The notes below the pieces were generated by a model. That model made no database searches. It was not told the origin of the DNA and saw nothing but the letters and a program-made list of their open reading frames with translations. From positions 1,488,001 through 1,552,000 of the forward strand of contig JASTWF010000034.1 of the NCBI GenBank assembly GCA_030390025.1: a DNA stretch of 64,000 bases. The letters are read 5' to 3'. This stretch comes from Squalus acanthias (taxonomy: Eukaryota). Shown one piece after another: positions 4,755 to 56,151 of the stretch (the stretch's first letter is position 1; the number at the start of each line of letters is the position of its first letter). The translations under genes and the position numbers were made by a program.

Positions 4755-7700
4755 GGCTGAAGGGAGTTATACATTGGAGATCCCCAGGGTTTAGAACAGG
4801 GGGCTGGATTAGGCAAACACTGGACATAACCACGACGCTGTACTGGGGGCTGGCAAGCGGCATACAGTGGATTTCCCCTGTGATCAGTACTGTAGGCTGA
4901 AGGGAGGTATACATTGGAGATCCCCAGGGTTGAGGACAGGGGGCTGGAGTAGACAAACACTGGACATAACCACGATGCTGTACTGGGGGCTGGAAAGAGG
5001 CATACAGTGGATTTCCCCTGTGATCAGTACTGTACGCTGAAGGGAGCTATACAGTGGAGTTCCCCAGGGTCCAGTACTGTGGTCTGGGGGGAGGTATACA
5101 GTGGAGTTCCCCAGGGTCCAGTACTGTGGTCTGGGGGGAGGTATACAGTGGATTTCCCCAGGGTTCAGTAGCAGGGACTGGAGAGAGGTATATAGTGGAG
5201 TTCCCCAGGGTTCAGTACTGGGGTCTGGAGAGAGGTGTACAGTGGAGTTCCCCACAGTTCAGTACTGGGGGCTCGAGCGAGGTATACAGTGGAGTTCCCC
5301 AGGGCTCAGTACAGGTGTCTGGGGGGAGGTATACAGTGGAGCTCCGCAGGGTTTAGTACTGGGGGCTGGAAGGAGGTATGCAGTGGAGATCCCCAGGGTT
5401 AAGTGGCAGGGGCTGGAGGGGGTTTACAGTGGAGTTCCCCAGGATTCAGTACTGGGGTCTGGAGGGAGGTATACAGTGGAGTTCCCCAGGTTTCAGTACT
5501 GGTGTCTGGGGGGAGGTATACAGTGGAGTTCCCCAATGTTGAGCACTGGTATTTGGAGGGAAGTATACAGTGTAGAACCCCAGGTTTGAGTACTGGGCTC
5601 TGGAGGGATGTTATACAGTGGAGTTCCGCAGGGTTCAAGACTGGGGTCTGGAGGGAGGTTTGCAGGTCGATTACCCCGGGTTCAGTACTGGGGTCTGGAG
5701 GGAGGTATACAGTGGAGATCCCCAGGGTTCAGTACTGGGGTCTGGAGGGAGGTATACAGTGGAGATCCCCAGGGTTCAGTACTGGGGGCTGGAGGGAGGG
5801 ATACAGTGCAGTTCCGCAGTATTCAGTACTGGGTGCTGGAGGGAGGTATACAGTGGAGTTCCCCAGGGTTTAGTACTGGGGTCTGGAGGGAGGTATACAG
5901 TGGAGTTCCCCAGAGTTCAGTACTGGGGTCTGGAGGGAGGTATACAGTGGAGTTCCCCTGGGTTCAGTACTGGGGTCTGGAGGGAGGTATACAGTGGAGT
6001 TCCCCAGGGTTCAGTACTGGGTTCTGGAGGGAGGTATACAGTGGAGTTCCCCAGGGTTCAGTACTGGGGTCTGGAGGGAGGTATACAGTGGAGTTCCCCA
6101 GGGTTCACTACTGGGGTCTGGAGGGAGTTATACAGTGGAGTTCCCCAGGGTTCAGTACTGGGGTCTGGAGGGAGGTATACAATGGAGTCCCCCAGGGATC
6201 AGTACTGGGGGCTGGAGGGAGGTATACAGTGGAGTTCCCCAAGGTTCAGTACTGGGGTCTGGACGTCGGTATACAGGGCGATTCCACAGGGTTCAGTACT
6301 GGGCGCTGGAGAGAGGTACACAGTGGAGATCCCCAGGGTTCAGTACTGAGTGGTTGGAGAGAGGTATACAGTGCTGTTCCCCAGGGTACAGTATTGGGAG
6401 GCTGGAGAGAGGTATACAATGGAGTTCCCCAGGGTTCGGTACTGTGGGACTGGAGGGAGGTATACAGTGGATTTCCCCGGGGTTCAGTAGCAGGGTCTGA
6501 GAGTAGGTATACAGTGGAGTTCCCCAGGGTTCAGCAAAGGGGTCTGGAGGGTGGTGTACAGGACGATTCCCCAGGGTTCAGTTCTGGGCGCTGGAGGGAG
6601 GTTTCCAGTGGAGTTCCCCAGGGTTAAGTACTGGAGTCTGGGGGATGTATACAGAGGAGTTCCTCAGGGTTCATACCTGGTGGCTGGTGGGAGGTATACA
6701 GTGGAGTCCACCAGGGTTCAGTACTGGGGTATGGAAGGAGGTATAAAGTTGAGTTCCCCCAGTGAACAGTACTGGGGACTGGAGGAAGGTGCACAGTTAA
6801 GTTCCCCAGTGTTCAGTACTGGGGTCTGGAGTGAGGTACACTGTGAAGTTCCCCAGGGTTCAGTACCGGGGTCAGGAGAGAGGTGTACAGTGGAGTTCCC
6901 CACAGTTCAGTACTGGGGACTCAAGCGAGGTATACAGTGGAGTCCCCCAGGGCTCAGTACCGGGGTCTGGAGAGCTGTGTACAGTGGTGTTCCCCACAGT
7001 TCAGTACTGGGGACTGGAGTGATGTATACAGTGGAGATCCCCAGTGATCAGTACCGGGATCTGGAGAGAGGTGTACAGTGGAATTCCCCACAGTTCAGTA
7101 CTGGGGACTCAAGCGAGGTATACTGTCGAGTTCCGCAGTATTCGGTTTTGGGGGCTGGAGGTAGGTATGCAGAGGAGTTCCCCAGGGTTGAGTGGCAGGG
7201 GCTGCAGGGGGATTACAACGGAGTTCCCCAGGGTTCAGTATTGGATTGGAAGCGAGGTATGCAGCGGAGTTCCCCAGGGTTCAGTACTGGCGGCTGGAGG
7301 GAGGTAAACAGTGGAGTTCCCCAGGGTTCAGTACTGGGGTCCGGGGGTATGTATACAGTGTAGATGCCCAGGGTTCTGTCCTGTGGGCTGGAGAGAGGTA
7401 CACAGTGGAGTGCCCCAGGAATCAGTACTGATATCTGGGGGAAGGTATACATTGGAGATCCCCAAGGTTCAGTGCTGGGTTCTGGAGGGAGGTATACTGG
7501 ACGATTCCCCAGGGTTCAGTACAGAGCGCTGGAGGGAGGTATACAGTGGAGTTCCCCAGGGTTCAGTAGCAGGTGCTGGAGGGAGGTATACGGTGGAGTT
7601 CCCCAGAGTTCAGTCCTGGTGTCTGGAGGGAGGTATACACTGGAGTTTCCGAGGGTTCGGAACTAGGGTCTGGAAGGAGGTATACAGTGTTATTCCCCTG

Positions 7701-8850
7701 GGTTCAGTACTGGGGTCTGGGGGAATGTATACAGTGTAGATCCCCAGGGTTCAGTACTGTGGGCTGGAGAGTGGTACACAGTGGAGTTCCCCTGGGTTCA
7801 GTACTGGGGGGTTGGATGGAGCAATACAGTGGATTTCCCCAGGGTTCAGTTGCAGGGGCTGGAGGGAGGTATACAGGGTAGTTCCCCAGGGTTCAGTACT
7901 GTGGGCTGCAGGGAGATATACAGTGCTGTTCCAAAGGGTTCAGTATTGGGGCGATGGAGGGAGGTATACAGTGCAGATCCGCAGGGTTCAGTACTGGGGT
8001 CTGGAGCGAGGTATACAGTGGAGTTCCCCAGGGTTCAGTCCTGGTGTCTGGGGGGATGTATACAGTGGAGTTCCCCAGGGTACAGTACTGGGGGCTGGAG
8101 GGAGGTATACAGTGGAGTTCCCCAGGGTTCAGTACTGGGGGCTGGAGGGAGGTATACAGTGGAGTTCCGCAGGGTTCAGTACTGGGGTCTGGAGGGAGGT
8201 ATGCAGTGGAGTTCCCCAGGGTGCAGTACTGGTGTCTGGAGTGAGGTATACAGTGGAGTTCCACAGGGTTCCGTACTGGGAGCTCGAGGAAGGTATACAG
8301 TTGAGTTCCCCAGGGTTCAGTACTGAGATCTGGAGAGAGGAATACAGTGGAGTTCTCCAGTGTTTAGTACTGTGATCTGGAGGTAGGTATACAGCGCAAT
8401 TCTCCAGGGTTCAGTACTGGGGTCTGGAGGGAGGTATACAGTGGAGTTCCCCAGGGCTCAGTACTGGTGTCTGGAGGGAGGCATACAGTGGAGTTCCCCA
8501 GGGTTCAGTACTTTGGGCTGGAGGGAGGTACACAGTGGAGTTCCCCAGTGTTCAGTACTGGGGTATGGAAGGAGGTATACAGTGGAGTTACCCAGGGTCC
8601 AGTACTGGAGTCTGGAAGGAGGTATACAGTGCAGTTCCCCAGGGTTCAGTACTGGGGTCTGGAGGGAGGTATACAGTGCAGTTCCCCAGGGTTCAGTACT
8701 GGGGTCTGGAGGGAGGTATACAGTGCAGTTCCCCAGGGTTCAGTACTGGGGTCTGGAGGGTGGTATACAGTGCAGTTCCCCAGGGTTCAGTACTGGGGTC
8801 TGGAGGGAGGTATACAGTGGAGTTCCCCATGGTTCAGTACTGGGGGAGGG
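4755..8850 (+). repeat. 47-bp tandem satellite (~85 units) derived from CR1 RT coding sequence
   Basis: Consensus GGAGGGAGGTATACAGTGGAGTTCCCCAGGGTTCAGTACTGGGGTCT encodes WREVYSGVPQGSVLG; compare the CR1 at 226-270. Confidence 0.9.
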
Positions 8851-10008: not shown

Positions 10009-13000
10009 CAAGAGGCAGGGCAATATCAGGAAGGTAGTGCAGGAGTCGTCTTCCTCCAAAACAGATATACCGTTTTGGATTCTGTTGGGGGAAATGACCT
10101 ACCAGGGGAAGGCACCAGCAGCCAGGTTCATGGCACCATGGCTGGCTCTGCTGCACAGCAGGGCGGGAAAAAGTGTGGCAGAGCTATAGTGATAGTGGAC
10201 TCAATTGTAAGGGGAATAGACAGGAGTTTCTGTGGCCGCAACCGAGATTGCAGGATGGTATGTTGCCTCCCTGGTGCAAGGGTCAAGGATGTCTCGGAGC
10301 GGCTGCAGAACATTCTGGAAAGGGAGAGTGAAGAGCCAGCTGTCGTGGTGCATGTAGGTACCAACGATATAGGTAAAAAGCGGGAAGAGGTTCTGCAAGC
10401 AGAATTTCGGGAGCTAGGAGCTAAATTGAAAAGTAGGACCTCAAAGGTAGTAATCTCTGGGTTGCTACCAGTGCCACGTGCTAATCATAGCAGCATGAAC
10501 AGGACAGCGAGATTAAATACGTGGCTTGAGCAGGGGTGCAGGAGGGAGGGATTCAAATACCTGAGGCATTGGAACCAGTTATGGGGGAAGTGGGACCTGT
10601 ACAAAAGGGACGGTCTGCACTTGGGCAGGACTGGAACCGATGTCCTCGGGGTCATATTTGCTAAGGCAGTTCGGGAGGATTTAAACTAATATGGCAGGGG
10701 AATGGGAACCTATGTAGCGAAACAGGGGGAAGTACTATGCAGTCAGAAACAAATGTTAGAAGGGTGAGAAACAATAAGGGTAATCAGAGTAAACAAAGGC
10801 AAGAAACACAAAGGGCCATACTAAATCATAAGTCTAAAAGGACAAAGGGTGTTAATAAAACAAGCCTAAAGGCTCTGTGTCTTAATGCAAGGAGTATCCG
10901 TAATAAGATGGATGAATTGACTGTGCAAATTGAAGTTAACGGATATGATGTGATTACAGAGACGTGGCTCCAGAACAATCAAGGCTGGGAACTGAATATC
11001 AAGGGGTATTCAACATTCAGGAAAGATAGAATAAAAGGAAAAGGGGGTGGGGTAGCATTGCTGGTTAAAAAGGAGATTAATGCAACAGCTAGGAAGGACA
11101 TTAGCTTGGAGGATGTGGAATCAATATTGGTTGAGCTGCAGAACACCAAAGGGCAGAAAACGTTAGTGGGGGTTGTGTACAGACCTCCAAACAGAAGTAG
11201 TGAGGTGGGGGAGAGAATGAAACAGGAAATCAGAGCTGCATGCAAAAAAGGCGCAGCAGTTATCATGGGTGACTTTAATATGCATATAGATTGGGCTACT
11301 CAAACTGGAAGCAATACGGTGGAGGAGGATTTCCTGGAGTGTTTAAGGGATGGTTTCCTAAACCAATATGTTGAGGAACCAACTAGAGGGGAGGCCATCC
11401 TGGACTGGGTGTTGTGTAATGAGGAAGGACTCATCATCAATCTTGTGGTACGAGGCCCCTTGGGGAAGAGTGACCATAGTATGGTGGAGTTCGACATTAA
11501 GATGGAGAAGGAAACAGTTAATTCAGAGACCATGGTCCAGAACATAAATAAGGGCAACTTTGAGGGTATGAGGCGTGAATCGGCGAGGTTAGATTGGCAA
11601 GCGATATCTAAGGGGTTATCAGTGGAAGGGCAATGGCAGACATTTAGAGATCGCATGGATGAGCTACATCAATTGTACATCCCTGTCTGGGGTAAAAATA
11701 AAAAAGGGAAGGTGGCTCAACCATGGCTAACAAGGGAAATCAGGGATAGTATTAAAAGCAAGGAAGTGGCATACAAATTGGCCAGAAGTAGCAATAAACC
11801 CGGGGACAGGGAGAACTTTAAAACTCAGCAGAGGAGGACGAAGGGTTTGATTAGGGCAGGGAAAATAAAATATGAAAGGAAGCTTGCGGAGAACATTAAA
11901 ACGGACTGTAAAAGCTTCTATAAATATGTAAAAAGTGGTTAGTAAAAACAAACGTAGGTCCCCTGCAGTCAGAAACAGGGGAAGTCATAATGGGGAACAA
12001 AGAAATGGCTGATCAATTGAACAAGTACTTTGGTTCGGTGTTTACTGTGGAGGACACAAACAACCTTCCGGAAATAAAAGAGATCAAAGGATCTGGTAAG
12101 AGGGAGGAGCTGAGGGAAATCCTTATCAGTCGGGAAAAGGTGTTGGGGAAATTGATGGGACCGAAGGCTGATAAATCCCCAGGGCCTGATGGTCTGCATC
12201 CCAGAGTACTTAAGGAGGTGGCCTTGGAAATAGTGGATGCATTGACGATCATTTTCCAACATTCCTTAGAATCTGGATCAGTTCAGAAGTAGTGGAGGGT
12301 GGCTAATGTAACCCCTATTTTTAAAAGAGGATGGTGGGAGAAAGCAGGGAATTATAGACCGGTCAGCCTGACATCGGTGGTGGGTAAAATGATGGAATCA
12401 ATTATTAAAGATGTCATAACAGACCATTTGGAAAGTGGCGACATGATAGGTCCAAGTAAGCATGGATTTGTGAAAGGTAAATCATGCTTGACAAATCTGG
12501 AATTTTTTGAGGATGTTTCCAATAGGGTGGACGGGGGGGGGAATCAGTAGATGTGGTGTATTTGGACTTTCAGAAGGCCTTCGACAAGGTCCCACACAAG
12601 AGATTGGTGTGCAAAGTTAAAGCACATGGGATTGGGGGTAATGTGTTGACGTGTATTGAGAACTGGTTGGCACACAGGAAACAAAGAGTAGGAGTAAATG
12701 GGTACGTTTCAGAATGGCAGGCAGTGACCAGCGGGGTACTGCAGGATTCGGTGCTGGGGCCCCAGCTGTTTACATTATATATTAATGATTTGGACGAAGG
12801 GATTAATTGTAATATCTCCAAATTTGCGGATGACACTAAATTGGGAGGCAGTGTGAACAATGAGGAGGATGCTAGGAGGCTACAGAGTGACTTGGACAGG
12901 TTGGGTGAATGGGCAAATGTATGGCAGATGAAGTACAATGTGGATAAATGTGAGGTTATCCACTTTGGTGGTAAAAATAGGGAGGCAGACTATTACCTGA

Positions 13001-14477: not shown

Positions 14478-17400
14478 TACATAACGAACATACGAATTAG
14501 GAGCAGGAGTCGGCCATTCGGTCCCTCAAGCCTGTTCCGCCATTCAATAAGATCATGGCTGATCTGATTACTCCACATTCCCGCCTACCCCCGATAACCT
14601 TTCACCCCCTTGCTTATCAAGAATCTATCTACGTCCGCCTTAAAATATTCAAAGACTCTGCTTCCACCGCCCTCTGAGGAAGAGAGTTCCAAAGACTCAC
14701 GACACTGAGAAAAAACATTCTCCTCATCTCTGTCTAAAATGGGCGCTCCATTATTTTTAAACAGTGACCCCTAGTTCTTGATTCTCCCACAAGAGGAAAC
14801 ATCCTCTCTGCATCCACCCTGTCAAGTCCCCTCAGGATCTTATAGGTTTCAATCAAGTCACCTCTTACTCTTCTAAACTCCAGTGGATACAAGCCTAGCC
14901 TGTCCAACCGTTCCTCATAAGACAACCCGCCCATTCCAGGTATTAGTCTAGTAAACCTTCTCTGAACGGCTTCCAACGCATTTACATCCTTCCTTAAATA
15001 AGGAGACTAATACTGTACTCAGTACTCCAGATGTGGTCTCACCAATGCCCTCGATAACTGAAGCATAAACTCCCTACTTTTGTATTCAATTCCCCTCGCA
15101 ATAAATGATAACATTCTATTAGCTTTCCTAATTACTTGCTGTACATGCATACTAACCTTTTCCGATTCATGCACTAGCACACCCAGAACCCTCTGCATCT
15201 CAAAGCTCTGCAATCTCTCACCATTTAGATAATATGCTTATTTTTTATTTTTCTTGCCAAAATGCACAATTGCACATTTTCACACATTATACTCTATTTG
15301 CCAGATCTTTGCCCACTCACTTAACCAATTTAAATACCTTTGTAGACTCTATATGTCCTCTTCACAATTTACTTTCCTACCTATCTTTGTCATCAGCAAA
15401 TTTAGCAACCATACCTTCGGTCCCTTCATCCAAGGCATTTATATAAATTGTAAAAAGTTGAGGCCCCAGCATTATCCCTGTGGCACACTACACGTTACAT
15501 CTTGCCAACCAGAAAATGACCCATTTATGCCTACACTCTGTTTCCGGTTAGCTAGCCAATCTTCTATCCATGCCAATATGTTACCCCCTACACCATGAGC
15601 TTCTATTTTCCGAAATAACCTTTGATGTGGCACCTTATCAAATGCCTTCTGGAAATCTAAGTACAGTACATCCACCGCTTCCCCTTTATCCACAGCACAT
15701 GTTACTTCCTCAAAGAACTCCAATAAATTGGTTAAACATGATTTCCCTTTCACAAAACCATGCTGACTCTGCCTGATTACCTTGAACTTTTTCAAGTGCC
15801 CTGCTATAACGTCTTTAATAATAGTTTCTAGCATCTTCCCCAAGACAGGTGTTAAGGTAACTGGCCTGTAGTTTCCTGCTTTCTGTGTCCCTCTCTTTTT
15901 GAATAAAGGAGTTACAATCGCTATTTTCTAATCTAATGGAACCTTCCCCGAATCTAGGGAATTTTGGAAAATTAAAATCAAAGCATCAACTATCTCACTT
16001 GCTACTTATTTTAAGACCCTAGGATGAAGTCCATCGGGACCCGGGGACTTGTCAGCCCGCATCTCCAACAATTTCCTCAGTACTGCTTCCCTGGTGATTG
16101 TAATTTTCTTGACTTCCTCCCTCCCTTCCATTTCCTGATTTACAGCTGTTTCTGGGATGTTACTTGTATCCTCTATAGTGAAGACCGATGCAAAATACCT
16201 GTTCAATTCAACTCCCATCTCCTTATTTTCCATTAATTCCCCAGACTCACTTTTTATAGCACCAACGCTCCCTTTGTTAACTCTTTTCTTTTTAGAATAT
16301 CTATAGAAACTCTTACTATCTGTTTTTAAATTCCTAGCTAGCTTTCTCTCGTACTCTAATTTTTCTCTCCTTATTAATCTTTTAGTAATTCTTTGCTGTT
16401 TGTTTATATTCTGTCCAATCTTCTGACCTGCCACCCATCTTTTCACAATTATATGCTTTTTCTTTAAGTTTGATACTATCTTTAACTTTTTTAGTTAACC
16501 ACGGATGGTGGGTCCTCCTCTTGGAATTTTCTATCTCGTTAGAATGGATCTATTCTGTGTATTCTGAAATATCCCATTAAATGTCTGCCACTGCAGCTCT
16601 ATTGACCTATCGCTTACTCTAGTTTGCCAGTTCACTTTAGCAAGCTCTGCTATCATGCCCTCATAATTGCCCTTATTTAAGTAAAAAAAACTAGTCTTGG
16701 ACCAAATCTTCTCTCCCTCAAACTGAATGTAAAATTCAATCATATTATGATCGCTGCGACCTAGGGGCACCTTCACTATGTGGTCATTAATTAATCTGAT
16801 CTTGTTTCACAATACCAGGTCTGCTCTCGCCTGCTCTCTGGTTGGCTCCAGAACGTGCTGTTCTAAGAAAATGTCCCAAAAACATTCTATGAACTCCTCA
16901 TCTAGGCTACCTTTGCCCATCTGATTTTTCATTTTATATGTAGATTAAAATCCCCCATGATTATTGCCGCACCTTTCTGATAAGCTCCCATTATTTCTTC
17001 CTTGATACTCCATCCTGAACGTGTGGTTACTGTTAGGGGGCCTGTACACCACTTCCACAAGTGACTTCTTGCCTTCATCATTTCTCATCTCTACCCAAAC
17101 CGCTTCTGCATCCTGGTTTCCTGAACTTAATTCATCCCTCTATTGCGCTAACACCATTATTAATTTACAGAGCCACCCCTCCACTTTTTCCGAAATATCA
17201 TGTACCCTTCAATATTCAGGTCCCAATGTTTGTCATCCTGCAGCCATGTCTCTGTAATGGCTATCAGATTGTACTTATTTAATTCCAATTGCGCCATCAG
17301 TTCATCTGTTTTGTTTCGAATGCTACGTGCATTCAGATACAGAGCCTTTAGTTTTGTCCTTTTATTATTTTTGTAACCTTTAGCCTTATCTGTTGATTTA

Positions 17401-17720
17401 CTCTTAGATTTGTGCTCTCTATCCCTTCCCGTCACGGTCTGTTTATCATTTCCCATATTAATACCTTTCTCTCTTGTCTTGTTTCTACTCTTTCAATTAC
17501 CACATCTTCCCAGATTTGATCCCTGGCCCCCAATATTTAGTTGAAAGCCCTCTCCACCGCCCTAGTTATATGACTCGCCAGAACACTGGTCCCAGCACGG
17601 TTCAGGTGAAGACCAACCCAACGGTACAGATCCCACTTTCCCCAGTACTGGTGCTAGTGCCCCAGGAAGCGAAACCAATTTCTCCCATACCAGTCTTTGA
17701 GCTACGCATTCATCTCTCTA
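14478..17720 (-). mobile_element. CR1 LINE, decayed; ORF1 3' part, full ORF2 remnant and tail
   Basis: Minus-strand [47 protein letters not shown] and VQRRFTRLIPG; tail at ~14480. Confidence 0.95.
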
Positions 17721-17721
17721 A

Positions 17722-19958
17722 TTTGATGGAACAGTGTAGAGGGAGCTTTACTCTGTATCTAAACCGTGCTGTATCTGCCCTGGGAGTGTTTGGTGGGACA
17801 GTGTAGAGGGAGCTTTACTCTGTATCTAAACCGTGCTGTATCTGCCCTGGGAGTGTTTGGTGGGACAGTGTAGAGGGAGCTTTACTCTGTATCTAAACCG
17901 TGCTGTAACAGCCCTGGGAGTGTTTGATGGGACAGTGAAGAGGGAGCTTTACTCTGTATCCAACCCGTGCTGTACCTGCCCTGGCAGTTTTTGATAGGAC
18001 AGTGCAAAGGGAGCTTTATTCTGGAACTAACCCATGCACTACATGCCCTGCGAGTGTTTGATGGGACAGTGAAGAGGGAGCTTTACTCTATATCTAACCT
18101 GTGCTGTACTTGCCCTGAGGGTGTTTGATTGGACAGTGTAGAGGGAGCTTTATTCGGTATCTAACCCGTGCTGTACCTGCCCAGTGAGTGTTTGATTGGA
18201 CAGTGTAGACGGAGCTTTACTCTGTAACTAACCCATGCACTAACTGCCCAGCGAGTGTTTGATGGGACAGTGTCGACGGAGCTGTATTCTATATATAACC
18301 ATTGCAGTTCCTGCCCTGGGAGAGTTTGATGGGATTCTGTATTGGGATCTTTACTCAGCATCTTACCTGTGCTGTACCTGTCCTGGGAGTGTTTGATGGG
18401 ACGGTGTATAGGTAGCTTTACTCTGCATCATACCTGTGCTGTACCTAAACTGGGAGAGTTTGATGGGACAGTGGAGAGGGAACTTCTTTCCATATCTAAT
18501 CCATGCTGCACCTGCCCCGGGACTGTTAGATGGGACAGTGTAGAGGGAGCTCTACTCTATATCTAACCATTGTTGTATCTGCCCTGGGATTGTTTGATGG
18601 CACAATGTATAGTGAGCTATACTCTGTATCTAACCCGTGCAGTACCTGGCCTGGGAGTGTTTGTTGGAACAGGATGGAGGGGTCTTTACTCTGTATCTAA
18701 CCCGTACTGTTCAAGACCTGGGAGTGTTTGATGTGATAGTATGCAGGGAGCTTTACTCAGTATCTAACTCGTGCTGTACCTGCCCTGGGAGTGTTTGATG
18801 GGGCAGTGTAGAGGGAGCTTTACTCTGTATCTAATCCGTGCTGTACCTGACCTGGGAGTGTTTGATGCAACAGTGTAGAGGCAGCTTTACGCTGCATCTT
18901 ACCCGTGCAGTACCTGGCCTGGGAGTGTTTGATGTGATAGTATACAGGGAGCTATAGTCAGTATCTAACACGGGCTGTACATGCCTGGAAATATTTGATG
19001 GGACAGTGCATAGGGAGCTTTACTCTGTACCTAACCCATGCACTAACTGCCCTGCGAGTGTTTGATGGGACAGTGCAGTGGGAGCTTTACTCTATATCGA
19101 ACCATTGCTGTACCTGCCCTGGGCGTGTTGGATGGGATTCTGTAGAGGGATCTTTACTCTGCATCTAACCCGTGCTGTAACTGGCCTGAGAGTGTTTGAT
19201 GCAACAGTGCAGAGGCAACCTTACTCTGTATCTTACCTGTGCTGTACCTGACCTGGGAGTGTTTGATGGGATAGTATGGAGGGAGCTTTATTCGGTATTT
19301 AACCCGGGCTGTACTTGCCTGGGACAGTTAGATGGGACAGAGTAGAGGAAGCTTTACTCTGTATCTTACCCTGTGCTGCAGCTGCCCTGGGAGTGTTTGA
19401 TGGGTCCTTTTAGAATGATCTTTACTCTGCAGCTAAACTGTGATATACCTGCCCTGGCAGGTATTGAAACGACAGTGTAGAGGGAGCTTTACTCAGTATC
19501 TAACCCGTGCTGTATCTGCCCTGGGAGTCATTGATGGGACAGTGTAGAGGGAGCTTTACTCTGTATCTAACTCGTGCTGTCGCTGCCTGGGAATGCTTGT
19601 TGGGACAGTGTAGAGAGAGCTTTCCTCTGTGTGTAACCCGTGCTGCACATGACCTGGGATTGTTTGATGGCATAATGTGGAGGGAGCATTACCCTGTATC
19701 TAAACCGTACTCAAACTGCCCCAGGAGTGTGTGTTGGGACAGTGTAGAGGGCTCTTTACTCTGTATCTAAACCTTGCTGTACCTGCCCTGGGTGTGCAAA
19801 AACGGCCAGTGTATTGTGCGCTTTACTCTATATCTAACCCATGCTGTACCTAACCTGTGAGTGTTTGATGGGACAGTGCAGTGCGATCTTTACTAAGAAT
19901 CTAACAAATGCTGTACCTGCACTGGGACTGTTTGATGGGACAGTGTAGTGGGAGCCTT
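17722..19958 (+). repeat. 67-bp tandem satellite (~33 units)
   Basis: Unit GGGACAGTGTAGAGGGAGCTTTACTCTGTATCTAACCCGTGCTGTACCTGCCCTGGGAGTGTTTGAT; period 67 measured at 17741/17808. Confidence 0.95.
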
Positions 19959-20141
19959 ATAACTCTTTATACCGTTAGAATCCTTAATAATCATTTACAA
20001 AAGGTGTATAACGGGTTATTAAGGATTGTAAAAAGGAATAAGAGGAGTACAGTATACATTGGTCTAAGTAAGCTTCGGGAAAACAAAAGTCAATAAATAA
20101 ACTAAAACTAGAAAATTAATAAGTAATATAAGGGTTAAGTC

Positions 20142-21088
20142 ATGGCAGTAGAGCTCGGACCTGTGTCATGCTCCTCCTGTAACATGTGGGAAATCATGGA
20201 CGCTTCCTGTGTCCCTGACAACCATGTGTGCGGGAAGTGTGTCCAGCTGCAGCTCATGTGGGACCGCATGACGGCCCTTGAGCTGCGGATGGACTCACTT
20301 TGGAGCATCCACGATTCTGAGAGGGTTGTGAATAGCACATTTAGTGAGTTGGTCACACCGCAGGTTAAGGCCAGAGTAGATAGTACATGGGTGACCAAAA
20401 GGCAGAGCAAGGGCAGGAAGGTAGTGCAGGAATCCCCTGGGGTTGTCTCCCTCAGCAACAGGTTCACCGCCTTAGGTGCTGTTGTCGGGGGGGATGACTC
20501 ATCGGGGGAAGGCACCAGCAGCCAGGCTCATGGCACCATGACTGGCTCTGTTGCAAAGAAGGGAGGGAAAAGAGTGGCAGGGCTATAGTAATAGGGGATT
20601 CGATTGTAAGGGGAATAGATAGGAGTTTCTGTGGTCGCGACCGAGACTCCAGGATGGTAATTTGCCTCCCTGGTGCAAGGGTCAAGGATGTCTCGGCGCG
20701 GGTGCAGAACATTCTGGAGGGGGAGGGGGAACAGCCAGTTGTCGTGATACATGTTGGTACCAACGACGTAGCTAAAAAAAGGGAAGAGGTCCTACAAGTA
20801 GAATTTAGGGAGTTAGGAGCCAAGCTAAAAAGTAGGACCTCGAAGGTAGTAATCTCTGGATTACTACCAGTGCCACGTGCTAGTAAGAGTACAGAGAACA
20901 GGATAGTTAGGCTAAATACGTGGCTTGAGCAGTGGTGTAAGAGGGAGGGTTTTAAATTTTTGAGGCATTGGGACCAGTTTTGTGGTAGGTGTGACCTATA
21001 CAATAGGGACGGTCTACACCTGTGCAAAGATGGAACTGATGTTCTCGGGGTAAATTTTGATAAAGCAGTTCGGGAGCATTTAAACTAG
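20142..21088 (+). pseudogene. CR1 ORF1 (CxxC..CxxC zinc finger, coiled coil, SGNH esterase) with one frameshift at ~20570
   Basis: CSSCNMWE..CGKC, then AIVIGDSIVRG and IHVGTND in the next frame; one A is missing from an A-run relative to the 10.1-kb copy. Confidence 0.85.
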
Positions 21089-24030
21089 TATGGCAGGGGG
21101 CTAGAAACCCATGTAGTGAAATAGAGGAAAGTGAAAGGCAGACAGAAATAAATGGTAAAAAGGAGAGGAACAAAAAACAAAGGGCCAAACTAATTCATAA
21201 AAAATGTGAGCATAAAAAAAGCCTGAGGGTTTTATACCTTAATGCGAGAAGCATCAGGAACAAGGTAGATGAATTAGCTGTGGAAATAGAGGTTAATAAT
21301 TATGATCTAATTGGGATTACGGAAACATGGTTGCAGGGTGAGCAGGGCTGGGAGCTTAACATACAGGGGTATTCAGTATTTAGGAAGGATCGACAAAAAA
21401 GAAAGGGAGGAGGGGTAGCATTGCTGGTAAAAGAGGGGATAAATGCAATTGAAAGGAAGGATATTAACTCAGTTAATACAGAATCTATATGGGTGGAGCT
21501 AAGAAATAGCGAGGGGCGAAAAACATTAATAGGAGTGGTATATAGGCCTCCAAATAGTAAAATAGAGGTTGGGGAGGGCATCACGAGGGAAATTAGAGAA
21601 GCGTGCAATAAGAGCACAGCTGTCATCATAGGTGACTTTAACTTACATATAGATTGGACTAGCCTAATCAGTAAAAATAATGAGGAGGAGGAATTCCTTG
21701 AGTGTTTAAGGGATGGTTATCTGGATCAATATGTCGAGGAACCAACTCGGGAACAGGCTATATTGGACTGGGTACTGTGCAATGAGAAGGGACTAATTAG
21801 TAATCTTGTTGTACGGGGACCCTTGGGTCAGAGCGATCATAACATGATCGATTTCTCACTCGAAATGGAGAGCGAAGAAATTGACTCAGAGACTCAGGTC
21901 CTGAATTTAAACAAGGGGAATTATGATGCCATTAGACGGGAACTGAGTAGGTCTGATTGGACAACGTTCCTGGGAGGACTGGAGGTAGATAAACAATGGC
22001 AAGCATTTAAAGATAGAATGACAAAATTGCAAAAATTGTTTATACCAATCTGGCATAAAAGGAAATCTAAAAAGGTGACTCAACCGTGGATAACAGGGGA
22101 AATTAGAGACAGCATAAAATCCAAAGATAGGGCGTATAAAATAGCCAAAAAACGCGCCAGAGCGGAAGATTGGGAACAGTTTAAGATAGAGCAAAGGAGG
22201 GCAAAGGGCTTAATCAAGAAGGGCAAAATAGCTTACGAAAGCAAGCTGGCGGAAAATATAAAAACTAACTCCAAAAGCTTTTATAAGTATATCAAGAGGA
22301 AAAGACTGGTGAAAACCAAAGTTGGTCCATTGCAGTCAGATACGGGGGAATATATAATGGGAAATAAGGAAATGGCAAACCAACTAAATGCATACTTTGG
22401 GTCAGTCTTTACGAAGGAAGACACAAAAAACCTCCCTGGGATATCGGGAAAAATAGGGACATTGGCAAAGGAGGAACTGACGCAAATCAATATCTCTAAG
22501 GATATGGTGTTAAGGAAGCTAAAGGGATTGAAGGCGGACAAATCCCCAGGGCCTGATAACATGCATCCTAGGGTACTGAAGGAGGTGGCCCTAGAGATAG
22601 CGGATGCACTAAGCATGATTTTTCAGAATTCATTAGACTCGGGAACAGTGCCCATGGATTGGAGGGTAGCTAACGTTACCCCACTATTCAAAAAGGGGGG
22701 TAGGGAAAAAGCAGGTAATTACAGACCTGTAAGCCTTACATCAGTTGTGGGCAAAATGCTGGAGTCCATCATTAAGGATGAAATAGCCGAGCACTTAGCA
22801 AATGGGGATAGGATAGGACAGAGTCAACATGGATTTACAAAGGGTAAATCGTGCTTGACTAATCTATTGGAATTTTTTGAGGGAGTAACTGGTAAAATAG
22901 ATGGGGGAGAGCCAGTAGATGTGGTGTACCTGGACTTCCAAAAGGCCTTCGATAAGGTCCCACATAAAAGATTAGCATGGAAAATTGAAGCTCATGGGAT
23001 AAAGGGGAAAGTATTGACGTGGATAGAGAACTGGCTGTCAGATAGAAAACAGAGAGTTGGAATAAACGGCTCATTTTCTGAATGGCAGGCAGTAACAAGT
23101 GGGGTACCACAGGGATCTGTCCTGGGTCCCCAGCTGTTCACAATTTATATTAATGACCTGGATCAGGGAGTCGAATGCAGCATTTCCAAATTTGCAGACG
23201 ACACTAAACTAGGAGGGGGGGTGGGCTCAGAGGAGGAGACCAGGAAGCTCCAGAGCGATTTGGACAGACTGGGTGATTGGGCGGATAAATGGCAGATGCA
23301 CTATAATGTGGACAAGTGCGAAGTTATCCACCTTGGGTGCAGGAACGGGAGGGCAAATTATTATTTAAATGGCAATAAATTGGGAGAGGGGGAAGTACAG
23401 AGAGACCTGGGTGTTCTTGTACACCAGTCACTGAAGGCGAGCATGCAGGTGCAACAGGCGGTCAAGAAGGCAAACGGTATGCTGGCCTTCATAGCAAAAG
23501 GGTTGGAATACAGGAACAGGGATACCTTGCTGCAGCTGTACAGGGCACTGGTGAGACCACACCTCGAGTACTGTGTACAGTTTTGGTCGCCTCATCTGAG
23601 GAAAGATGTTCTTGCCATGGAGGGGGTGCAGCGGCGATTCACCAGGCTGATACCAGGAATGGCGGGATTGACCTATGAGGAGAGACTATGTAGTTTAGGG
23701 ATGTACACACTGGAGTTTAGAAGATTGAGAGGGGACCTCATAGAAGTGTATAAAATTCTGACAGGTCTAGACAGATTAGATGCAGAAGGAATGTTTCCCT
23801 TGGCGGGTGAGAACAGAACTAGAGGACATAATTTAAGGATAAGGGCTAAACCATTTAGGACAGAAATGAGGGGGAATTTCTTCACTCAGAGAGTGGTGAA
23901 CCTGTGGAACTCATTGCCACAGAGGGCAGTGTACGCCAGCTCATTAAATATATTTAAGAGGGAATTAGATATATTTCTACAGGCAAAAGGGGTTAAGGGT
24001 TACGGAGAGAAGGCGGGGACGGGATACTGA
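21064..24030 (+). CDS. CR1 ORF2, AP-like endonuclease plus reverse transcriptase; open from 21064, no early ATG
   Basis: No stop from 21064 to 24030. Motifs [46 protein letters not shown] and FADD. Confidence 0.92.
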   Translation, partial: SSSGAFKLVWQGARNPCSEIEESERQTEINGKKERNKKQRAKLIHKKCEHKKSLRVLYLNARSIRNKVDELAVEIEVNNYDLIGITETWLQGEQGWELNIQGYSVFRKDRQKRKGGGVALLVKEGINAIERKDINSVNTESIWVELRNSEGRKTLIGVVYRPPNSKIEVGEGITREIREACNKSTAVIIGDFNLHIDWTSLISKNNEEEEFLECLRDGYLDQYVEEPTREQAILDWVLCNEKGLISNLVVRGPLGQSDHNMIDFSLEMESEEIDSETQVLNLNKGNYDAIRRELSRSDWTTFLGGLEVDKQWQAFKDRMTKLQKLFIPIWHKRKSKKVTQPWITGEIRDSIKSKDRAYKIAKKRARAEDWEQFKIEQRRAKGLIKKGKIAYESKLAENIKTNSKSFYKYIKRKRLVKTKVGPLQSDTGEYIMGNKEMANQLNAYFGSVFTKEDTKNLPGISGKIGTLAKEELTQINISKDMVLRKLKGLKADKSPGPDNMHPRVLKEVALEIADALSMIFQNSLDSGTVPMDWRVANVTPLFKKGGREKAGNYRPVSLTSVVGKMLESIIKDEIAEHLANGDRIGQSQHGFTKGKSCLTNLLEFFEGVTGKIDGGEPVDVVYLDFQKAFDKVPHKRLAWKIEAHGIKGKVLTWIENWLSDRKQRVGINGSFSEWQAVTSGVPQGSVLGPQLFTIYINDLDQGVECSISKFADDTKLGGGVGSEEETRKLQSDLDRLGDWADKWQMHYNVDKCEVIHLGCRNGRANYYLNGNKLGEGEVQRDLGVLVHQSLKASMQVQQAVKKANGMLAFIAKGLEYRNRDTLLQLYRALVRPHLEYCVQFWSPHLRKDVLAMEGVQRRFTRLIPGMAGLTYEERLCSLGMYTLEFRRLRGDLIEVYKILTGLDRLDAEGMFPLAGENRTRGHNLRIRAKPFRTEMRGNFFTQRVVNLWNSLPQRAVYASSLNIFKRELDIFLQAKGVKGYGEKAGTGY

Positions 24031-24384
24031 ATTGAAGGATCAGCCATGATCTCATTAAATGGCGGAGCAGGCTCGAAGGGCCGGATGGCCTACTCCTGCT
24101 CCTATCTTCTATGTATCTATGTATCTATGTAATGATTTATAAAGGGTCATGTCCCTTTATCATATTTTGCATCACTTTGTACCCCATTGAAATCCCTTTA
24201 TAATCCTTTGTCAATCATTATAACACTTTATAAGCCTTTGTCGATCATTACCACCCTTTATATTCCTTAACCATTCATCATAACACTTTATATTATATTA
24301 TCAAACTTTATATATATTATAATACTTTATATTCATTTATAATAATTTATAACCAGCATAATCCTTTATAACCCTTTATAAAGC

Positions 24385-31374: not shown

Positions 31375-34300
31375 TCCGCAGCAGTCGGACGGTTTGCACC
31401 TGAACCAGAGCGGGACAAATATCCTTGCGGGGAGGTTTGCTAGCACTGTTTGGGGGGGGGGTGGGTGGGTTTAAACTACTTGGCAGGGGGATGGGATACA
31501 GAGTGGAGCTACAATAGGGGCTGATGTACAGTCAAATATAGAGAAAAAAACAAGTCAGCTTGGAAGACAGGGCAAACTTGTAAGAGCAAGGCTGGAAGGC
31601 ATCTATTTTAATGCAAGGAGTCTAGCGAATAAGGTGGTTGAACTGAAGGTGTTGATAAACACATGGGAGTATGATATTGTTGCTATCACGGAAACATGGT
31701 TGAGGGAGGGGCAAGACTGGCAGCTCAATATTCCGGGGTACAGAATCTTCAGGCGAGACAGAGGGGGAGGTATAAGAGGAGGGAGTGTCGCAATATTAAT
31801 TAAGGAATCAATTACTGCCATAAGGAGGGATGATATATTAGCAGGTTCCTCCAATGAGGCTATATGGGTGGAGCTTAAAAACAAAAAGGGGGCAAACACT
31901 TTGCTGGGAGCGTACTATAGGCCCCCAAACAGTCAGGGGGAGATTGAGGAACAGATATGTAGGCAAATCTCAGAGAAATGTGCAAATAATAGGGTAATAA
32001 TAATGGGGGATTTCAACTTCCCCAATATTAACTTGGATAGTCAGAGTGTGAAAGGCTTAGAGGGTTCAAAATTCTTAAAGTGCATCCAGGAGAGCTTTTT
32101 GAGCCAGCATGCAGAAAGTCCTACAAGAGAGGGGGCGGTACTGGACCTAATTCTAGGGAATGTGGCCGGCCAAGTGGAAGAAGTGGTAGTAGGTGAGCAC
32201 TTTGGTGACAGTGACCATAATACGGTGAGATTTAAGGTGGTCATGGAAAAGGACAGGGATGGGCCGGAAATAAAGGTTCTAAATTGGGGGAACGCCGATT
32301 TTAATAGGATAAGGCAGGATCTGGCCAAAATGGACTGGGATCAGCTGCTTGTAGGAAAATCCGCATCGGAGCAATGGGATTCTTTCAGAAGGGAGATTGA
32401 GATCATACAATGGCAGCATGTTCCCGTAAAGGTCAAGGGTGGTTCCAAAAACCCCAGGGAACCTTGGATGTCAGGGGATATACGAGAATGGATTAGGAAA
32501 AAAAGGAGGGCTTTTGGCAGATACAAAATGCTAAAGACAGAGGAAGCACTAGAGGAGTACAAAAAGTGCAGGGAATACTTAAAAAAGAAATTAGGAGATC
32601 AAAGAGGGGCCATGAAATAACACTGGCGAGCAAAATAAAGGAAAATCCTAAGATGTTTTATAAGTATATTAAGGGTAAGAGGATAACTAGGGAAAAAATA
32701 GGGCCCATTAGGGACAAAAGTGGCAATCTGTGTGTGGAGCCGGAAGATGTAGGTGGGGTTCTAAATGAATATTTTGCATCTGTTTTCACTATGGAGAAGG
32801 ACGATGCAGACATAAAATTAGGGCAGGGGGACTGTGATATACTCGAACATTTTAACATCGAGGGGGAGGAGGTATTGGCGGTTTTAGCAGGTCTAAAAAT
32901 GGATAAATCCCCAGGCCCGGACGAAATGTATCCCAGGCTGCTGTGTGAGGCAAAGGAGGAGATTGCAGGGGCTCTAACACATATATTCAGAACCTCTCTG
33001 GCCACAGGGGATGTGCCAGAGGACTGGAGAACCGCTAATGTAGTACCATTATTCAAGAAAGGGAGTAGGGAAAAACCGGGGAACTACAGGCCAGTGAGCT
33101 TAACATCAGTGGTAGGAAAATTATTGGAAAAAATTCTCCACTTGGAGAGGCAAGGATTAATCAGGGTTAGCCAACATGGCTTTGTCAAGGGAAGATCATG
33201 TCTGACTAATTTGATTGAATGTTTTGAGGGGGTGACTAGGTGTGTGGATGAGGGTAACGCAGTGGATGTGGTATACGTGGATTTCAGTAAGGCCTTCGAT
33301 AAAGTCCCGCACAGGAGACTGATCAAGAAGGTAAGAGCCCATGGAATCCAGGGTGCCTTGGCACATTGGATACAAAACTGGCTCAGTGGCAGAAGGCAGA
33401 GGGTGATGGTCGAAGGTTGTTTTTGTGACTGGAAGCCTGTGGCCAGTGGGGTACCACAGGGATCGGTGCTGGGTCCCTTGCTGTTTGTGGTCGACATTAA
33501 TGACTTGGATATGAATGTAAAAGATATGATCAGTAAGTTCGCGGATGATACAAAAATTGGTAGGGTGGTAAATAGCGAGGAGGGTAGCCTCAGTCTGCAG
33601 GATGATATAGATGGGTTGGTCAGATGGGCGGAACAGTGGCAAATGGAATTTAATCCGGAAAAGTGCGAGGTGATGCACTTTGGAGGGACTAACAAGGCAA
33701 GGGAATACACAATGAATGGTAAGACCCGAGGCAAGACGGAGGGTCAGAGGGATCTTGGTGTGCAAGTACACAGATCCCTGAAGGCGGCGGAACAGGTGGA
33801 TAAGGTGGTAAAAAAGGCATATGGGATACTTGCATTCATTAGCCGAGGCATAGAATATAAGAGCAAGGAGGTTATGATGGAGCTGTACAAAACGCTAGTT
33901 AGGCCACAGCTGGAATACTGTGTGCAGTTCTGGTCGCCACACTACAGGAAGGATGTGATTGCATTGGAGAGGGTGCAGAGGAGATTCACCAGGATGTTAC
34001 CTGGGCTGGAGCGTTTCAGCTATGAAGAGAGACTGGGCAGATTGGGTTTGTTTTCCTTGGAGCAGAGGAGGCTGAGGGGGGACATGATTGAGGTGTACAA
34101 AATTATGAGGGGCATAGATCGGATGGATACTAAGCAGCTTTTTCCCTTAGTAGAGGGGTCTATAACAAGGGGGCATAGATTCAAGGTAAAGGGCGGGAGG
34201 TTTAGAAGGGATTTGAGAAAGAACTTTTTCACCCAGAGGGTGGTTGGAGTCTGGAACTCACTGCCTGAAAGGGTTGTGGAGGCAGGAACCCTCACAACAT

Positions 34301-49054: not shown

Positions 49055-50062
49055 AACTCCTCTCTCTCCCCCGGTTTCTCTCTCTCTCTCTTTTGTTTCC
49101 CTCTTCCTCTCTCTCTCCTGGTTTCTCTGTCTCTCTCTCTGTCTCTCCCCGTTTCTCGCGCTCTCTCTTTCCCGGTTTCTCTTGCTCTCTCTCTCCAGGT
49201 TTCACTCTCTCTCTCTCTCTTTCTCCGAGTTTCTCTCTGTCTCTCCCGGTTTCTCTCTCTCTCTCCCAGTTTCTCTCTCTGTCTCACTCTCTCTCCCGGT
49301 TTATCTCTCTTTCTCTCTCCCAGTTTCTCCCTCTCTCTCCCAGTTTCTCTCTCCCTCTCCCACTTTATCTCTCTCTCTCTCTCCCAGTTTTTCTCTCGCT
49401 CCCAGTTTCTCTCTCTCTCTCCCAGTTTCTCTCTCTCTCCCAGTTTCTCTCTCCCTCTCCCACTTTATCTCTCTCTCTCGCCCAGTTTTTCTCTCTCTCC
49501 CAGTTTCTCTCTCTCTCTCCCAGTTTCTCTCTCCCTCTCCCACTTTATCTCTCTCTCTCCCAGTTTTTCTCTCTCTCCCAGTTTCTCTCTCTCTCTCCCA
49601 GTTTCTCTCTCTCTCTCCCAGTTTCTCTCTCTCTCTCTCCCAGTTTCTCTCTCCCTCTCCCACGTTATCTCTCTCTCTCTCTCCCAGTTTTTCTCTCTCT
49701 CCCAGTTTCTCTCTCTCTCTCTCCCAGTTTCTCTCTCTCTCTCCCAGTTTCTCTCTTTCTCCCAGTTGCTCTCTCTCTCCCAGTTTCTCTCGCTTTCTCT
49801 CCCAGTTTTTCCTCTCTCTCTCCCAGCTTCTCTCTCTGTCTGTCTCTCTCCCAATTTCTCTCTCTGTCTGTCTCTCTCTCTCCCAATTTCTCTCTCTGTC
49901 TCGCTCTCTCTCTCCCAGTTTCTCTCTCTGTCTGTCTCTCTCTCTCCCAATTTCTCTCACTGTCTCACTCTCTCTCTCCTGGTTTATCTCACTCTCTCCT
50001 TGTCTCTCTCTCTCTCTCTCTCTACTGGTTTCTCTCTCTGTGTCTCTCTCTCTCTCTGTCTC

Positions 50063-50107
<45 letters not shown>

Positions 50108-50540
50108 TTGTTTCTCTCTCTCTCTCTCTCTCTCTACTGGTTTCTCTCTCTGTCTCTCTCTCTCTCTCTCCCAGTTTATCTCTCCCTATCCCAGTTTCTC
50201 TCTCTCCCAGTTTTTCTCTCTCTCCCAGTTTCTCTCTCTTTCTCCCAGTAACTCTCTCTCTCCCAGTTTCTCTCTCTCTCCCAGTTCCTCTCTCTCTCCC
50301 AGTTTATATCTCTCTCCCTCTGTCTCTATCACTTTCTCCCAATTACTCTCTCTTTCGCTCCCAGTTTATCTCCCTGTCTCGCTCTCTCTCTCTCCCAGTT
50401 TCTCTCTCTCTGTCTCTCTCCCGGTTTCTATCTCTCCCTCTCCCAGTTTCTCTCTCTGTCTGTCTGTCTCTCTCCCAATTTCTCTCTCTGTCTCTCTCTC
50501 TCTCTCTCTCTCCCGGTTTATCTCTCTCTCTCCTGCTTTC

Positions 50541-50573
<33 letters not shown>

Positions 50574-51740: not shown

Positions 51741-51774
<34 letters not shown>

Positions 51775-56120: not shown

Positions 56121-56151
<31 letters not shown>

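What the first reader, a model, noticed from the sequence alone, without database searches (positions are those of the whole stretch)
21064..21120. Candidate -1 programmed ribosomal frameshift fusing CR1 ORF1 to ORF2
Seen: ORF1 ends CAT TTA AAC TAG, placing T_TTA_AAC (21079-21085) in the correct phase directly before the stop. A -1 slip reads TTT AAA CTA GTA TGG CAG, which is the open ORF2 frame. That frame has no in-frame ATG until the end of the endonuclease domain (DHNM). The same phased heptamer is at 10680-10686 (GAT TTA AAC TAA, -1 frame continuous with ORF2, although that copy has an ATG at 10737). It also occurs in another subfamily at 31470-31476 (one base lost just after it, ORF2 start again ATG-less), and as T_TTC_AAC_TAA in the decayed minus copy (17546-17537). 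Three copies have TGGCAGGGG a few nt downstream, while the following sequence diverges. Known: U_UUA_AAC is the coronavirus X_XXY_YYZ slippery site; studied LINEs such as L1 and SART1 use reinitiation or translational coupling for ORF2. Inference: these CR1s may make a gag-pol-like ORF1-ORF2 fusion. I do not know whether this has been reported.
Basis: partly seen in the sequence, partly recalled or inferred. Interest (0 to 1): 0.8.

Follow-up and report, generated by a model that had tools for sequence, protein, structure and literature searches.

The report
Slippery frameshift site in vertebrate CR1s
An abundant jumping gene (a CR1 LINE) in this shark-like genome ends its first gene with a virus-style slippery sequence and a stop, and its copying-enzyme gene, often lacking a start codon, continues one base back, so it is likely made as a fusion by ribosomes slipping one base, which would answer how these widespread vertebrate elements translate that enzyme.

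Summary
Confirmed. ORF1 (zinc finger + SGNH esterase) ends T_TTA_AAC TAG at 21079-21088; the -1 frame is open for 983 codons through endonuclease and RT, first Met at 21844. Genome-wide, 137 of 153 junctions carry TTTAAAC before the stop; in 13 subfamily representatives the three codons are NNT 13/13 (five amino acids), TTA 12/13, AAC 13/13. The divergent 47-71-codon linker stays in frame and stop-free; four subfamilies have no Met before the endonuclease. ORF1 ends Leu-Asn in 81 of 87 homologs from sharks to turtles; bird -1 frames read Phe-Lys-Leu, a frog Val-Lys-Leu; distant relatives end Gln-Gly-Asn (G_GGA_AAC-compatible) or join the ORFs by in-frame UGA-C. Against: no 3' stem, pseudoknot or (in this family) G-quadruplex, only a G-run at +11; many families have an in-frame Met; no translation data. 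Best reading: -1 ribosomal frameshifting giving an ORF1-ORF2 fusion (0.8). Ten paper searches found no CR1 report, but four key papers were not held; a review states -1 frameshifting for Dictyostelium TRE LINEs. This scan noted the same site earlier in this genome and another.

The parts
20142..20588 (+). ORF1, 5' part: ATG, Cys-x2-Cys-x16-Cys-x2-Cys finger and basic linker; in this copy it runs out of frame after a one-base break in an A-run near 20568-20571
   Evidence: intact 316-codon frame in sister copy L016
20498..21088 (+). ORF1, 3' part: SGNH esterase ending His-Leu-Asn-stop
   Evidence: Pfam Lipase_GDSL_2 E 4e-12; sister-copy ORF1 matches PDB 4c1b_A E 1.5e-29
21079..21085 (+). slippery heptamer T_TTA_AAC (X_XXY_YYZ) in ORF1 phase; predicted -1 shift site
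21086..21088 (+). ORF1 stop directly after the heptamer (TA invariant, TAA or TAG in 13 of 13 representatives)
21096..21100 (+). G-run at +11 to +15 after the heptamer; candidate unstructured stimulator (or Gly codon constraint)
   Evidence: G at +11, +12, +13 in 13/13, +14 in 12/13 representatives
21085..21240 (+). -1-frame linker (54 codons from the heptamer to the Asn-Ala-Arg-Ser motif), no Met, no stop
21241..21840 (+). ORF2 APE endonuclease domain; first in-frame ATG only at 21844
   Evidence: Pfam Exo_endo_phos
22699..23331 (+). ORF2 reverse transcriptase domain; ORF2 ends at 24030
   Evidence: Pfam RVT_1 E 1.5e-31
24031..24131 (+). short 3' UTR ending in an 8-base microsatellite tail
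   Evidence: same end in L388
10680..10700 (+). same junction in a second subfamily (TTTAAAC TAA, G-run at +11; Met at linker codon 20)
31470..31490 (+). same junction in a third subfamily, decayed (one base missing in the stop, ORF1 disrupted)
17537..17546 (-). decayed junction TTTCAAC TAA in a dead copy amplified with its flanks

Best explanation
These CR1 LINEs end ORF1 in the slippery heptamer U_UUA_AAC plus a stop, with ORF2 open from that point one base back, and likely make ORF2 as an ORF1-ORF2 fusion by -1 programmed ribosomal frameshifting. Shown: the heptamer, its phase, its codon-level conservation, the open and in-frame linker, the lack of a conserved start codon, the G-run at +11. 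Inferred: most ribosomes stop at UAA/UAG and release the ~315-residue zinc-finger/esterase ORF1p; a minority, with tRNA-Leu on UUA and tRNA-Asn on AAC, re-pair on UUU and AAA, read CUA as Leu and continue through a 47-71-codon (95 in stork) flexible linker into endonuclease and RT, giving a ~1,300-residue Gag-Pol-like protein at a low ratio. Since no folded 3' stimulator is found, the pause is inferred to come from the adjacent stop codon and the G-run at the ribosome's mRNA entry, so efficiency is probably low (a few percent), which suits a LINE.
For: 137 of 153 junctions TTTAAAC before own stop; 16 of 18 in position-picked DNA. 13 representatives: NNT 13/13 over His, Ala, Asp, Gly, Thr; TTA 12/13; AAC 13/13, against 21% T3, 13% TTA among Leu, 42% AAC among Asn; only 2 of 43 conserved-residue columns use one codon. 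Of 134 copies with site and endonuclease motif, 115 are in frame and stop-free; modal distances 141-216 nt are all multiples of three; stops occur at 119 of 1267 codons in the other two frames. Four subfamilies lack any Met before the endonuclease; first Met at codon 256, 167, 133, 179. 81 of 87 homologs end Leu-Asn. Bird -1 frames read Phe-Lys-Leu in 13 of 13 anchored models, forcing T_TTA_AAY; a frog reads Val-Lys-Leu, forcing G_TTA_AAY, a deviation a review lists as tolerated. Among 83 further cluster representatives 50 end Leu-Asn, Gly-Asn or Lys-Asn at tail lengths 24-39, and 9 of 10 Gly-Asn ends follow Gln, as G_GGA_AAC would need. Relatives with the ORFs in one frame have UGA-C at the junction in 34 of 38 UGA cases.
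Against: No stable structure 3' of the site: 1 of 26 folds has z below -2, the consensus fold of +1..+45 is empty, and a two-tier G-quadruplex pattern is in 0 of 31 and 0 of 39 copies of the two best-sampled families; no conserved long-range partner. Invariant third bases are not unique to the site: 9 of 55 upstream columns have them, 7 with amino-acid change, so shared ancestry and G/T bias explain part. Eight of 12 clusters do have an in-frame Met in the linker, and duck/goose ORF2 models start at a Met 15 or 7 residues before the endonuclease Asn. The depletion of Glu/Lys/Gln/Met/Trp at position -3 is matched at -6, -7 and -13 to -15, so it proves nothing. 33 of 83 distant representatives have other ends. 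No DNA outside shark-like genomes was seen for the heptamer; no translation data.
Confidence: 0.8

Rival explanations
1. Termination-reinitiation without AUG, as proposed for mammalian L1: ribosomes stop at the ORF1 stop, stay on the RNA and restart at a non-AUG codon in the -1 frame at or near the junction, giving a separate ORF2p.
For: L1 ORF2 is described as using an AUG-independent initiation (PMC5009743 passage). It explains the open linker, the missing Met and the missing 3' structure.
Against: It does not call for X_XXY_YYZ: the fixed NNT-TTA-AAC codons, the bird and frog -1 frames and the Gln-Gly-Asn ends would be coincidence. No near-cognate start (CTG, GTG, ACG, TTG) lies in the first 10 linker codons of any of 12 clusters.
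Confidence: 0.1
2. ORF2 starts at family-specific AUG or near-cognate codons in the linker (reinitiation, leaky scanning or a shorter RNA); the heptamer is an ancestral relic or serves only some families.
For: In-frame Met at linker codons 17, 19, 20, 27, 31, 45, 53 in 8 of 12 clusters; annotated duck/goose ORF2 begins at such a Met.
Against: Four clusters, among them families with 30 and 18 near-identical intact junctions, have none; the stretch between heptamer and Met is also open and in frame; the heptamer is equally fixed in families with and without Met.
Confidence: 0.05
3. The conservation is at protein or other level: ORF1p needs a C-terminal Leu-Asn, or the site is a splice or other RNA signal, and ORF2 is made from a processed RNA.
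For: Leu-Asn sits 26 residues after the catalytic Asp-Gly-x-His motif in most vertebrate homologs; third-base invariance occurs elsewhere nearby.
Against: The solved LINE esterase type and other relatives end otherwise (P0114/P0119); Leu-Asn persists at tail lengths 25-39; codons, not just residues, are fixed. No AG is conserved after the site, and no joint was seen in contigs of four runs, two guessed RNA runs bridging the junction (weak, contigs only).
Confidence: 0.05

Closest known systems
Canonical -1 programmed ribosomal frameshift signals of retroviruses, coronaviruses and arteriviruses (X_XXY_YYZ + 3' stimulator; PMC3542737, passages)
   Same: Heptamer of the defined form in phase at the end of the first ORF; polymerase in the -1 frame without its own start; GUU variant (frog CR1) is one the review lists as tolerated in equine arteritis virus. 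That U_UUA_AAC is the coronavirus site is recalled.
   Different: No stem-loop or pseudoknot 5-9 nt downstream; stop codon directly adjacent; a short G-run at +11 instead; host is a LINE.
Dictyostelium TRE5-A and TRE3-A (APE-type non-LTR elements; PMC5911963, figure-legend passage)
   Same: The review states both require a -1 frameshift to translate ORF2.
   Different: Different clade and ORF1; I saw neither the primary papers nor their shift site, so whether it was measured is unknown to me.
Vertebrate CR1 subgroup 7 with type IVB ORF1 (zinc finger/leucine zipper + esterase; PMC4120745, passages)
   Same: Same ORF1 and ORF2 architecture; this element most likely belongs here.
   Different: No frameshift, readthrough or overlap is mentioned in that paper's main text (0 occurrences).
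L1 (AUG-independent ORF2 initiation) and SART1 (UAAUG stop-start) (PMC5009743, PMC3708506, passages)
   Same: Bicistronic LINE RNA, ORF2 made at low level after ORF1.
   Different: They give a separate ORF2p; here no stop-start and no spacer, the frames overlap at a slippery site.
Paramecium LINEs (PMC5405496, passages)
   Same: Recoding (+1 shift, reinitiation or readthrough) suggested from consensus layout.
   Different: +1 or same frame, ciliate clade, suggestion only.

Membership tests
Canonical -1 PRF signal | X_XXY_YYZ heptamer in the zero-frame phase | tested here: met
   T_TTA_AAC at 21079-21085; 137 of 153 junctions
Canonical -1 PRF signal | -1 frame open from the heptamer into a conserved coding region | tested here: met
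   115 of 134 scorable copies in frame and stop-free to the endonuclease; 983 codons in L388
Canonical -1 PRF signal | Heptamer conserved beyond the needs of the protein | tested here: met
   NNT 13/13, TTA 12/13, AAC 13/13; tempered by 9 of 55 other columns with invariant third base
Canonical -1 PRF signal | Stable stem-loop or pseudoknot 5-9 nt downstream | tested here: not met
   1 of 26 folds z below -2; empty consensus fold; no conserved distant partner in 8 copies. The folding tools do not predict pseudoknots, but no first stem exists to build one on.
Canonical -1 PRF signal | Transframe product, lost on heptamer mutation | not testable with these tools
   needs reporter, profiling or mass spectrometry
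Vertebrate CR1, ORF1 type IVB | ORF1 with zinc finger and SGNH esterase | tested here: met
Vertebrate CR1, ORF1 type IVB | ORF2 with APE endonuclease and RT; short-repeat 3' tail | tested here: met
Vertebrate CR1, ORF1 type IVB | RT phylogeny places it in CR1 subgroup 7 | not tested
   only esterase trees were built; no reference RT set on hand
SART1-type stop-start reinitiation | AUG overlapping or next to the ORF1 stop | tested here: not met
   no in-frame Met before linker codon 17 in 12 clusters
L1-type AUG-independent reinitiation | Separate ORF2p started after ORF1 termination | not testable with these tools
   needs N-terminal or reporter data
Type II stop-codon readthrough (UGA-CUA/CGG) | Both ORFs in one frame across a UGA-C | tested here: not met
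   window family is -1 with TAA/TAG; met by metagenome relatives

The most novel reading that the evidence does not exclude
The whole vertebrate esterase-CR1 lineage, from sharks to birds, makes its reverse transcriptase as an esterase-endonuclease-RT fusion through a -1 frameshift that needs no folded RNA: it is driven by the adjacent stop codon and a single-stranded G-run at the mRNA entry channel, bound by a host G-run protein or by ORF1p itself; and esterase LINEs at large switch between U_UUA_AAC, G_GGA_AAC and UGA-C readthrough to keep the same Gag-Pol-like fusion.
Probability: 0.35. Interest if true: 0.9.

Novelty: new variant of a known kind. Interest (0 to 1): 0.76.

Why it matters
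How LINEs translate ORF2 is unsettled (PMC3708506, PMC5009743, passages), and CR1 is the dominant repeat of birds (PMC11835228 passage) and abundant here (54,000-92,000 first-look candidates). A defined seven-base site makes the question testable with one reporter. If true, ORF2p carries a membrane-binding esterase at its N-terminus, CR1 particles would be assembled like Gag/Gag-Pol, 'full-length' CR1 ORF2 annotations that begin at an internal Met are truncated, cell-culture CR1 constructs would need the native junction, and a natural -1 shift without a folded stimulator would be added to recoding biology.

Tried and rejected
Local stem/pseudoknot: rejected. G-quadruplex as the general stimulator: in the minimum-energy fold of 7 of 13 representatives, but absent from the two best-sampled families; control windows show the pattern in 219 of 2079. 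Long-range partner of the G-run in ORF2/3' UTR: best duplexes fall at different places in 8 copies, several of them broken by insertions. Protein-level test at position -3: not discriminating. TTTCAAC as an active variant: rejected. Splicing: no joint in contigs of four runs, weak. DNA of CR1 junctions from other vertebrates: not obtained from viral contigs, prokaryote genomes (one short irrelevant hit), plasmids, or supplements of three papers; the metagenome scan gave only distant relatives. DNA for Gln-Gly-Asn-ending relatives: none; their clusters bear no organism names. One search returned nothing because my E-value cut was too strict. Raw reads of one run laid nothing. No structure prediction or complex job was run.
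Full report
Observation. The window copy is a CR1-type LINE: ORF1 with a Cys4 finger and SGNH esterase, ORF2 with APE endonuclease and RT, and an 8-base microsatellite tail. ORF1 ends CAT TTA AAC TAG; TTTAAAC is at 21079-21085. The -1 frame is open from 21064 to 24030 and its first Met is at 21844, behind the endonuclease domain. This copy's own ORF1 is broken by a one-base frameshift near 20570, but a sister copy has both frames whole: 316 codons for ORF1 (L016) and 983 codons from the heptamer for ORF2 with first Met at 256 (L388). The genome is 3.7 Gb; the nearest named ORF1 homologs are from sharks and rays, so I call it shark-like.

Within the genome. The 30 best loci for the window family all have TTTAAAC TAG; a second search, whose query left out the ORF1 end, gave 27 of 30 TTTAAAC, 1 GTTAAAC and 2 without a junction. 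To avoid choosing by the heptamer I built a profile of ORF1 residues 235-304 only and ran it over 140 position-picked stretches (1.4 Mb; 20 of them flank the window): 16 of 18 candidates carry TTTAAAC+TA, 1 TTTCAAC, 1 has lost the junction. With the searched loci added there were 156 candidates in 17 clusters; the queries included the Leu-Asn end, which biases residues but not codons. Of 153 that could be read to a stop, 137 have TTTAAAC directly before it.

Codon test. I took one natural copy per cluster, the one with the longest open -1 frame, and dropped four clusters (one chimeric, two with indels at the site, one duplicate family), leaving 13. Their last three codons are NNT in 13 (His, Ala, Asp, Gly, Thr), TTA in 12, AAC in 13; backgrounds in the same ORF1 segments are 21%, 13% and 42%, and only 2 of 43 conserved-residue columns use a single codon, one being that Asn. 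The one exception belongs to a cluster of three decayed copies. Control: in 12 of these, four-fold sites are 43% identical (median), yet 9 of 55 upstream columns also have an invariant third base, 7 with amino-acid change, three of them at -9, -5 and -4. So the T alone is weak; the run of fixed bases forming exactly X_XXY_YYZ plus TA is the signal, and the clusters are related, not independent draws.

Frame test. In 12 clusters with a findable endonuclease, the linker from the heptamer is 47-71 codons, hardly alignable beyond its first ten residues, with 0 stops in the -1 frame against 2-8 and 1-12 in the others. Because those copies were chosen for openness, I counted all 156: 115 in frame and stop-free, 7 in frame with stops, 12 out of frame, 19 without the motif, 3 without the site. 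Four clusters have no Met in the linker; eight have one, at codons 17 to 53, never at a shared place. Contigs from three other organisms show a second subfamily differing at many linker sites and at the bases just before the heptamer and in the stop's third position, with no difference listed at 21079-21087.

Other vertebrates, protein level only. Of 120 ORF1 homologs, 87 had an anchored complete end and 81 of these end Leu-Asn, in sharks, rays, coelacanth, bony fish, frogs, turtles, lizards and a snake. Bird ORF1 models end Ala-Leu-Asn and bird gene models that run through the -1 frame read Phe-Lys-Leu-x-x-Lys/Arg in 13 of 13 that my anchor caught among 120 (12 stork, 1 ibis; a godwit model seen by eye agrees), open for 94-101 residues to the endonuclease. 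The two readings together force T_TTA_AAY. Five frog models read Gly-Val-Lys-Leu, forcing G_TTA_AAY; PMC3542737 lists GUU as a tolerated deviation. These are gene models and may contain false splices. Duck and goose ORF2 models start at a Met 15 or 7 residues before the endonuclease Asn, which favours the AUG rival for those families.

More distant esterase LINEs. A profile search (built from Leu-Asn-ending proteins, so biased) gave 128 new representatives; 83 had a tail of 20-45 residues after the catalytic motif. Fifty end Leu-Asn (39), Gly-Asn (10) or Lys-Asn (1), at tail lengths 24 to 39, against 0.9% for such dipeptides internally; 9 of 10 Gly-Asn ends follow Gln, which fits CAG GGA AAC, i.e. 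G_GGA_AAC; 33 end otherwise. No DNA or organism names were available for them, so this is inference. In 80 metagenome loci, 43 had an anchored ORF1 end; 38 stop at TGA, 34 of them followed by C (17 CTA), and the endonuclease is in the same frame in 20 of 33 where it was found, some without any Met before it. UGA-CUA is the type II readthrough context. Related elements thus seem to reach the same fusion by readthrough.

Stimulator. None of the usual kind. One of 26 folds of the 3' 60 or 100 nt has z below -2; the consensus fold of +1..+45 is empty; no shared distant partner appears. What is fixed is G at +11 to +13 (13 of 13), +14 and +18 (12 of 13), among the G-richest 3% of windows in 12 of 13; birds and frog keep Gly at the same codon, so a protein-level reason is not excluded. 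A two-tier G-quadruplex is predicted in 7 of 13 representatives but in 0 of 31 and 0 of 39 copies of the two best-sampled families. PMC5009743 says natural G-quadruplex stimulation was not known in 2016 and describes protein-stimulated shifting in arteriviruses; that the arterivirus motif lies about 11 nt downstream, and that a bare U_UUA_AAC slips at a percent or so, is recalled.

Mechanism. Most likely a low-level -1 shift at U_UUA_AAC, helped by the adjacent stop and the G-run, giving ORF1p-Leu-linker-EN-RT of about 1,300 residues (0.8). AUG-independent reinitiation (0.1), family-specific AUGs (0.05) and protein-level or splice constraint (0.05) remain; contigs of two guessed-RNA runs bridge the junction without a joint (weak).

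Literature. Ten full-text searches listed no paper linking CR1 to frameshifting. I saw passages only of PMC5009743 (first 300,000 of 449,034 characters; CR1 0 occurrences), PMC3542737, PMC3708506, PMC4120745, PMC3905857, PMC4255032, PMC5911963, PMC5405496, PMC5006619, PMC13405545, PMC11835228 (first 300,000 characters) and term searches in PMC8665684; supplements of three papers were searched without hits, the supplement store not answering. Haas 1997, Kojima 2005, Kapitonov and Jurka 2003 and Alisch 2006 were not held; a prior remark on CR1 could be there or in Repbase. PMC5911963 states that Dictyostelium TRE5-A and TRE3-A need a -1 frameshift, so the idea is not new for LINEs as a class. 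This scan's earlier notes report the same site in another piece of this genome and similar junctions elsewhere; they are not independent support.

Verdict. A real, deeply conserved feature; works like a Gag-Pol -1 frameshift, fails the structured-stimulator criterion, untested at the bench. New variant of a known kind; interest 0.76.

Noticed in passing
L062-L139 (e.g. L065, L069, L097, L139), ORF1 stop 33 codons after the Asp-Gly-x-His motif: Esterase-ORF1 LINEs in metagenome contigs have ORF2 in the same frame across TGA-C (CTA, CCA, CCT); L111 and L140 have TAG-G, L086 TGA-CTA. Likely stop-codon readthrough; no 3' stem stood out (1 of 13 z below -2).
   Followed up: partly
proteins P0299, P0308, P0325-P0327, P0333, P0337, P0367, P0378; P0323: Distant esterase ORF1s ending Gln-Gly-Asn or Ser-Lys-Asn, compatible with G_GGA_AAC and A_AAA_AAC shift sites; P0349 and P0374 end Phe-Phe-Arg. 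No DNA seen.
   Followed up: partly
window 4757-8845: Tandem array, 47-base unit, 87 copies, whose consensus resembles the CR1 RT segment coding Ser-Gly-Val-Pro-Gln-Gly-Ser-Val-Leu-Gly: a satellite apparently born from a LINE.
   Followed up: no
window 17330-17700 (-) and L357-L381: One dead CR1 copy amplified at least 40 times at 98-99% identity on unplaced contigs together with a neighbouring 67-base tandem array (17722-19959): segmental amplification.
   Followed up: partly
window 21050-21078 and equivalents: Third codon positions at -9, -5 and -4 before the stop are also invariant in 12 representatives, leaving a purine-rich stretch just 5' of the heptamer; a possible 5' element.
   Followed up: no
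window 49077-56399: 7.3-kb (TC)n-rich array that creates long spurious open frames.
   Followed up: no
protein P0014: A protein filed under Pseudomonas aeruginosa is a 56% identical esterase CR1 ORF1 ending Leu-Asn, probably host contamination.
   Followed up: no
window near 59847 (-) and L202: CR1 ORF1 whose last residues and junction are replaced by another repeat, the same chimera at two places.
   Followed up: no
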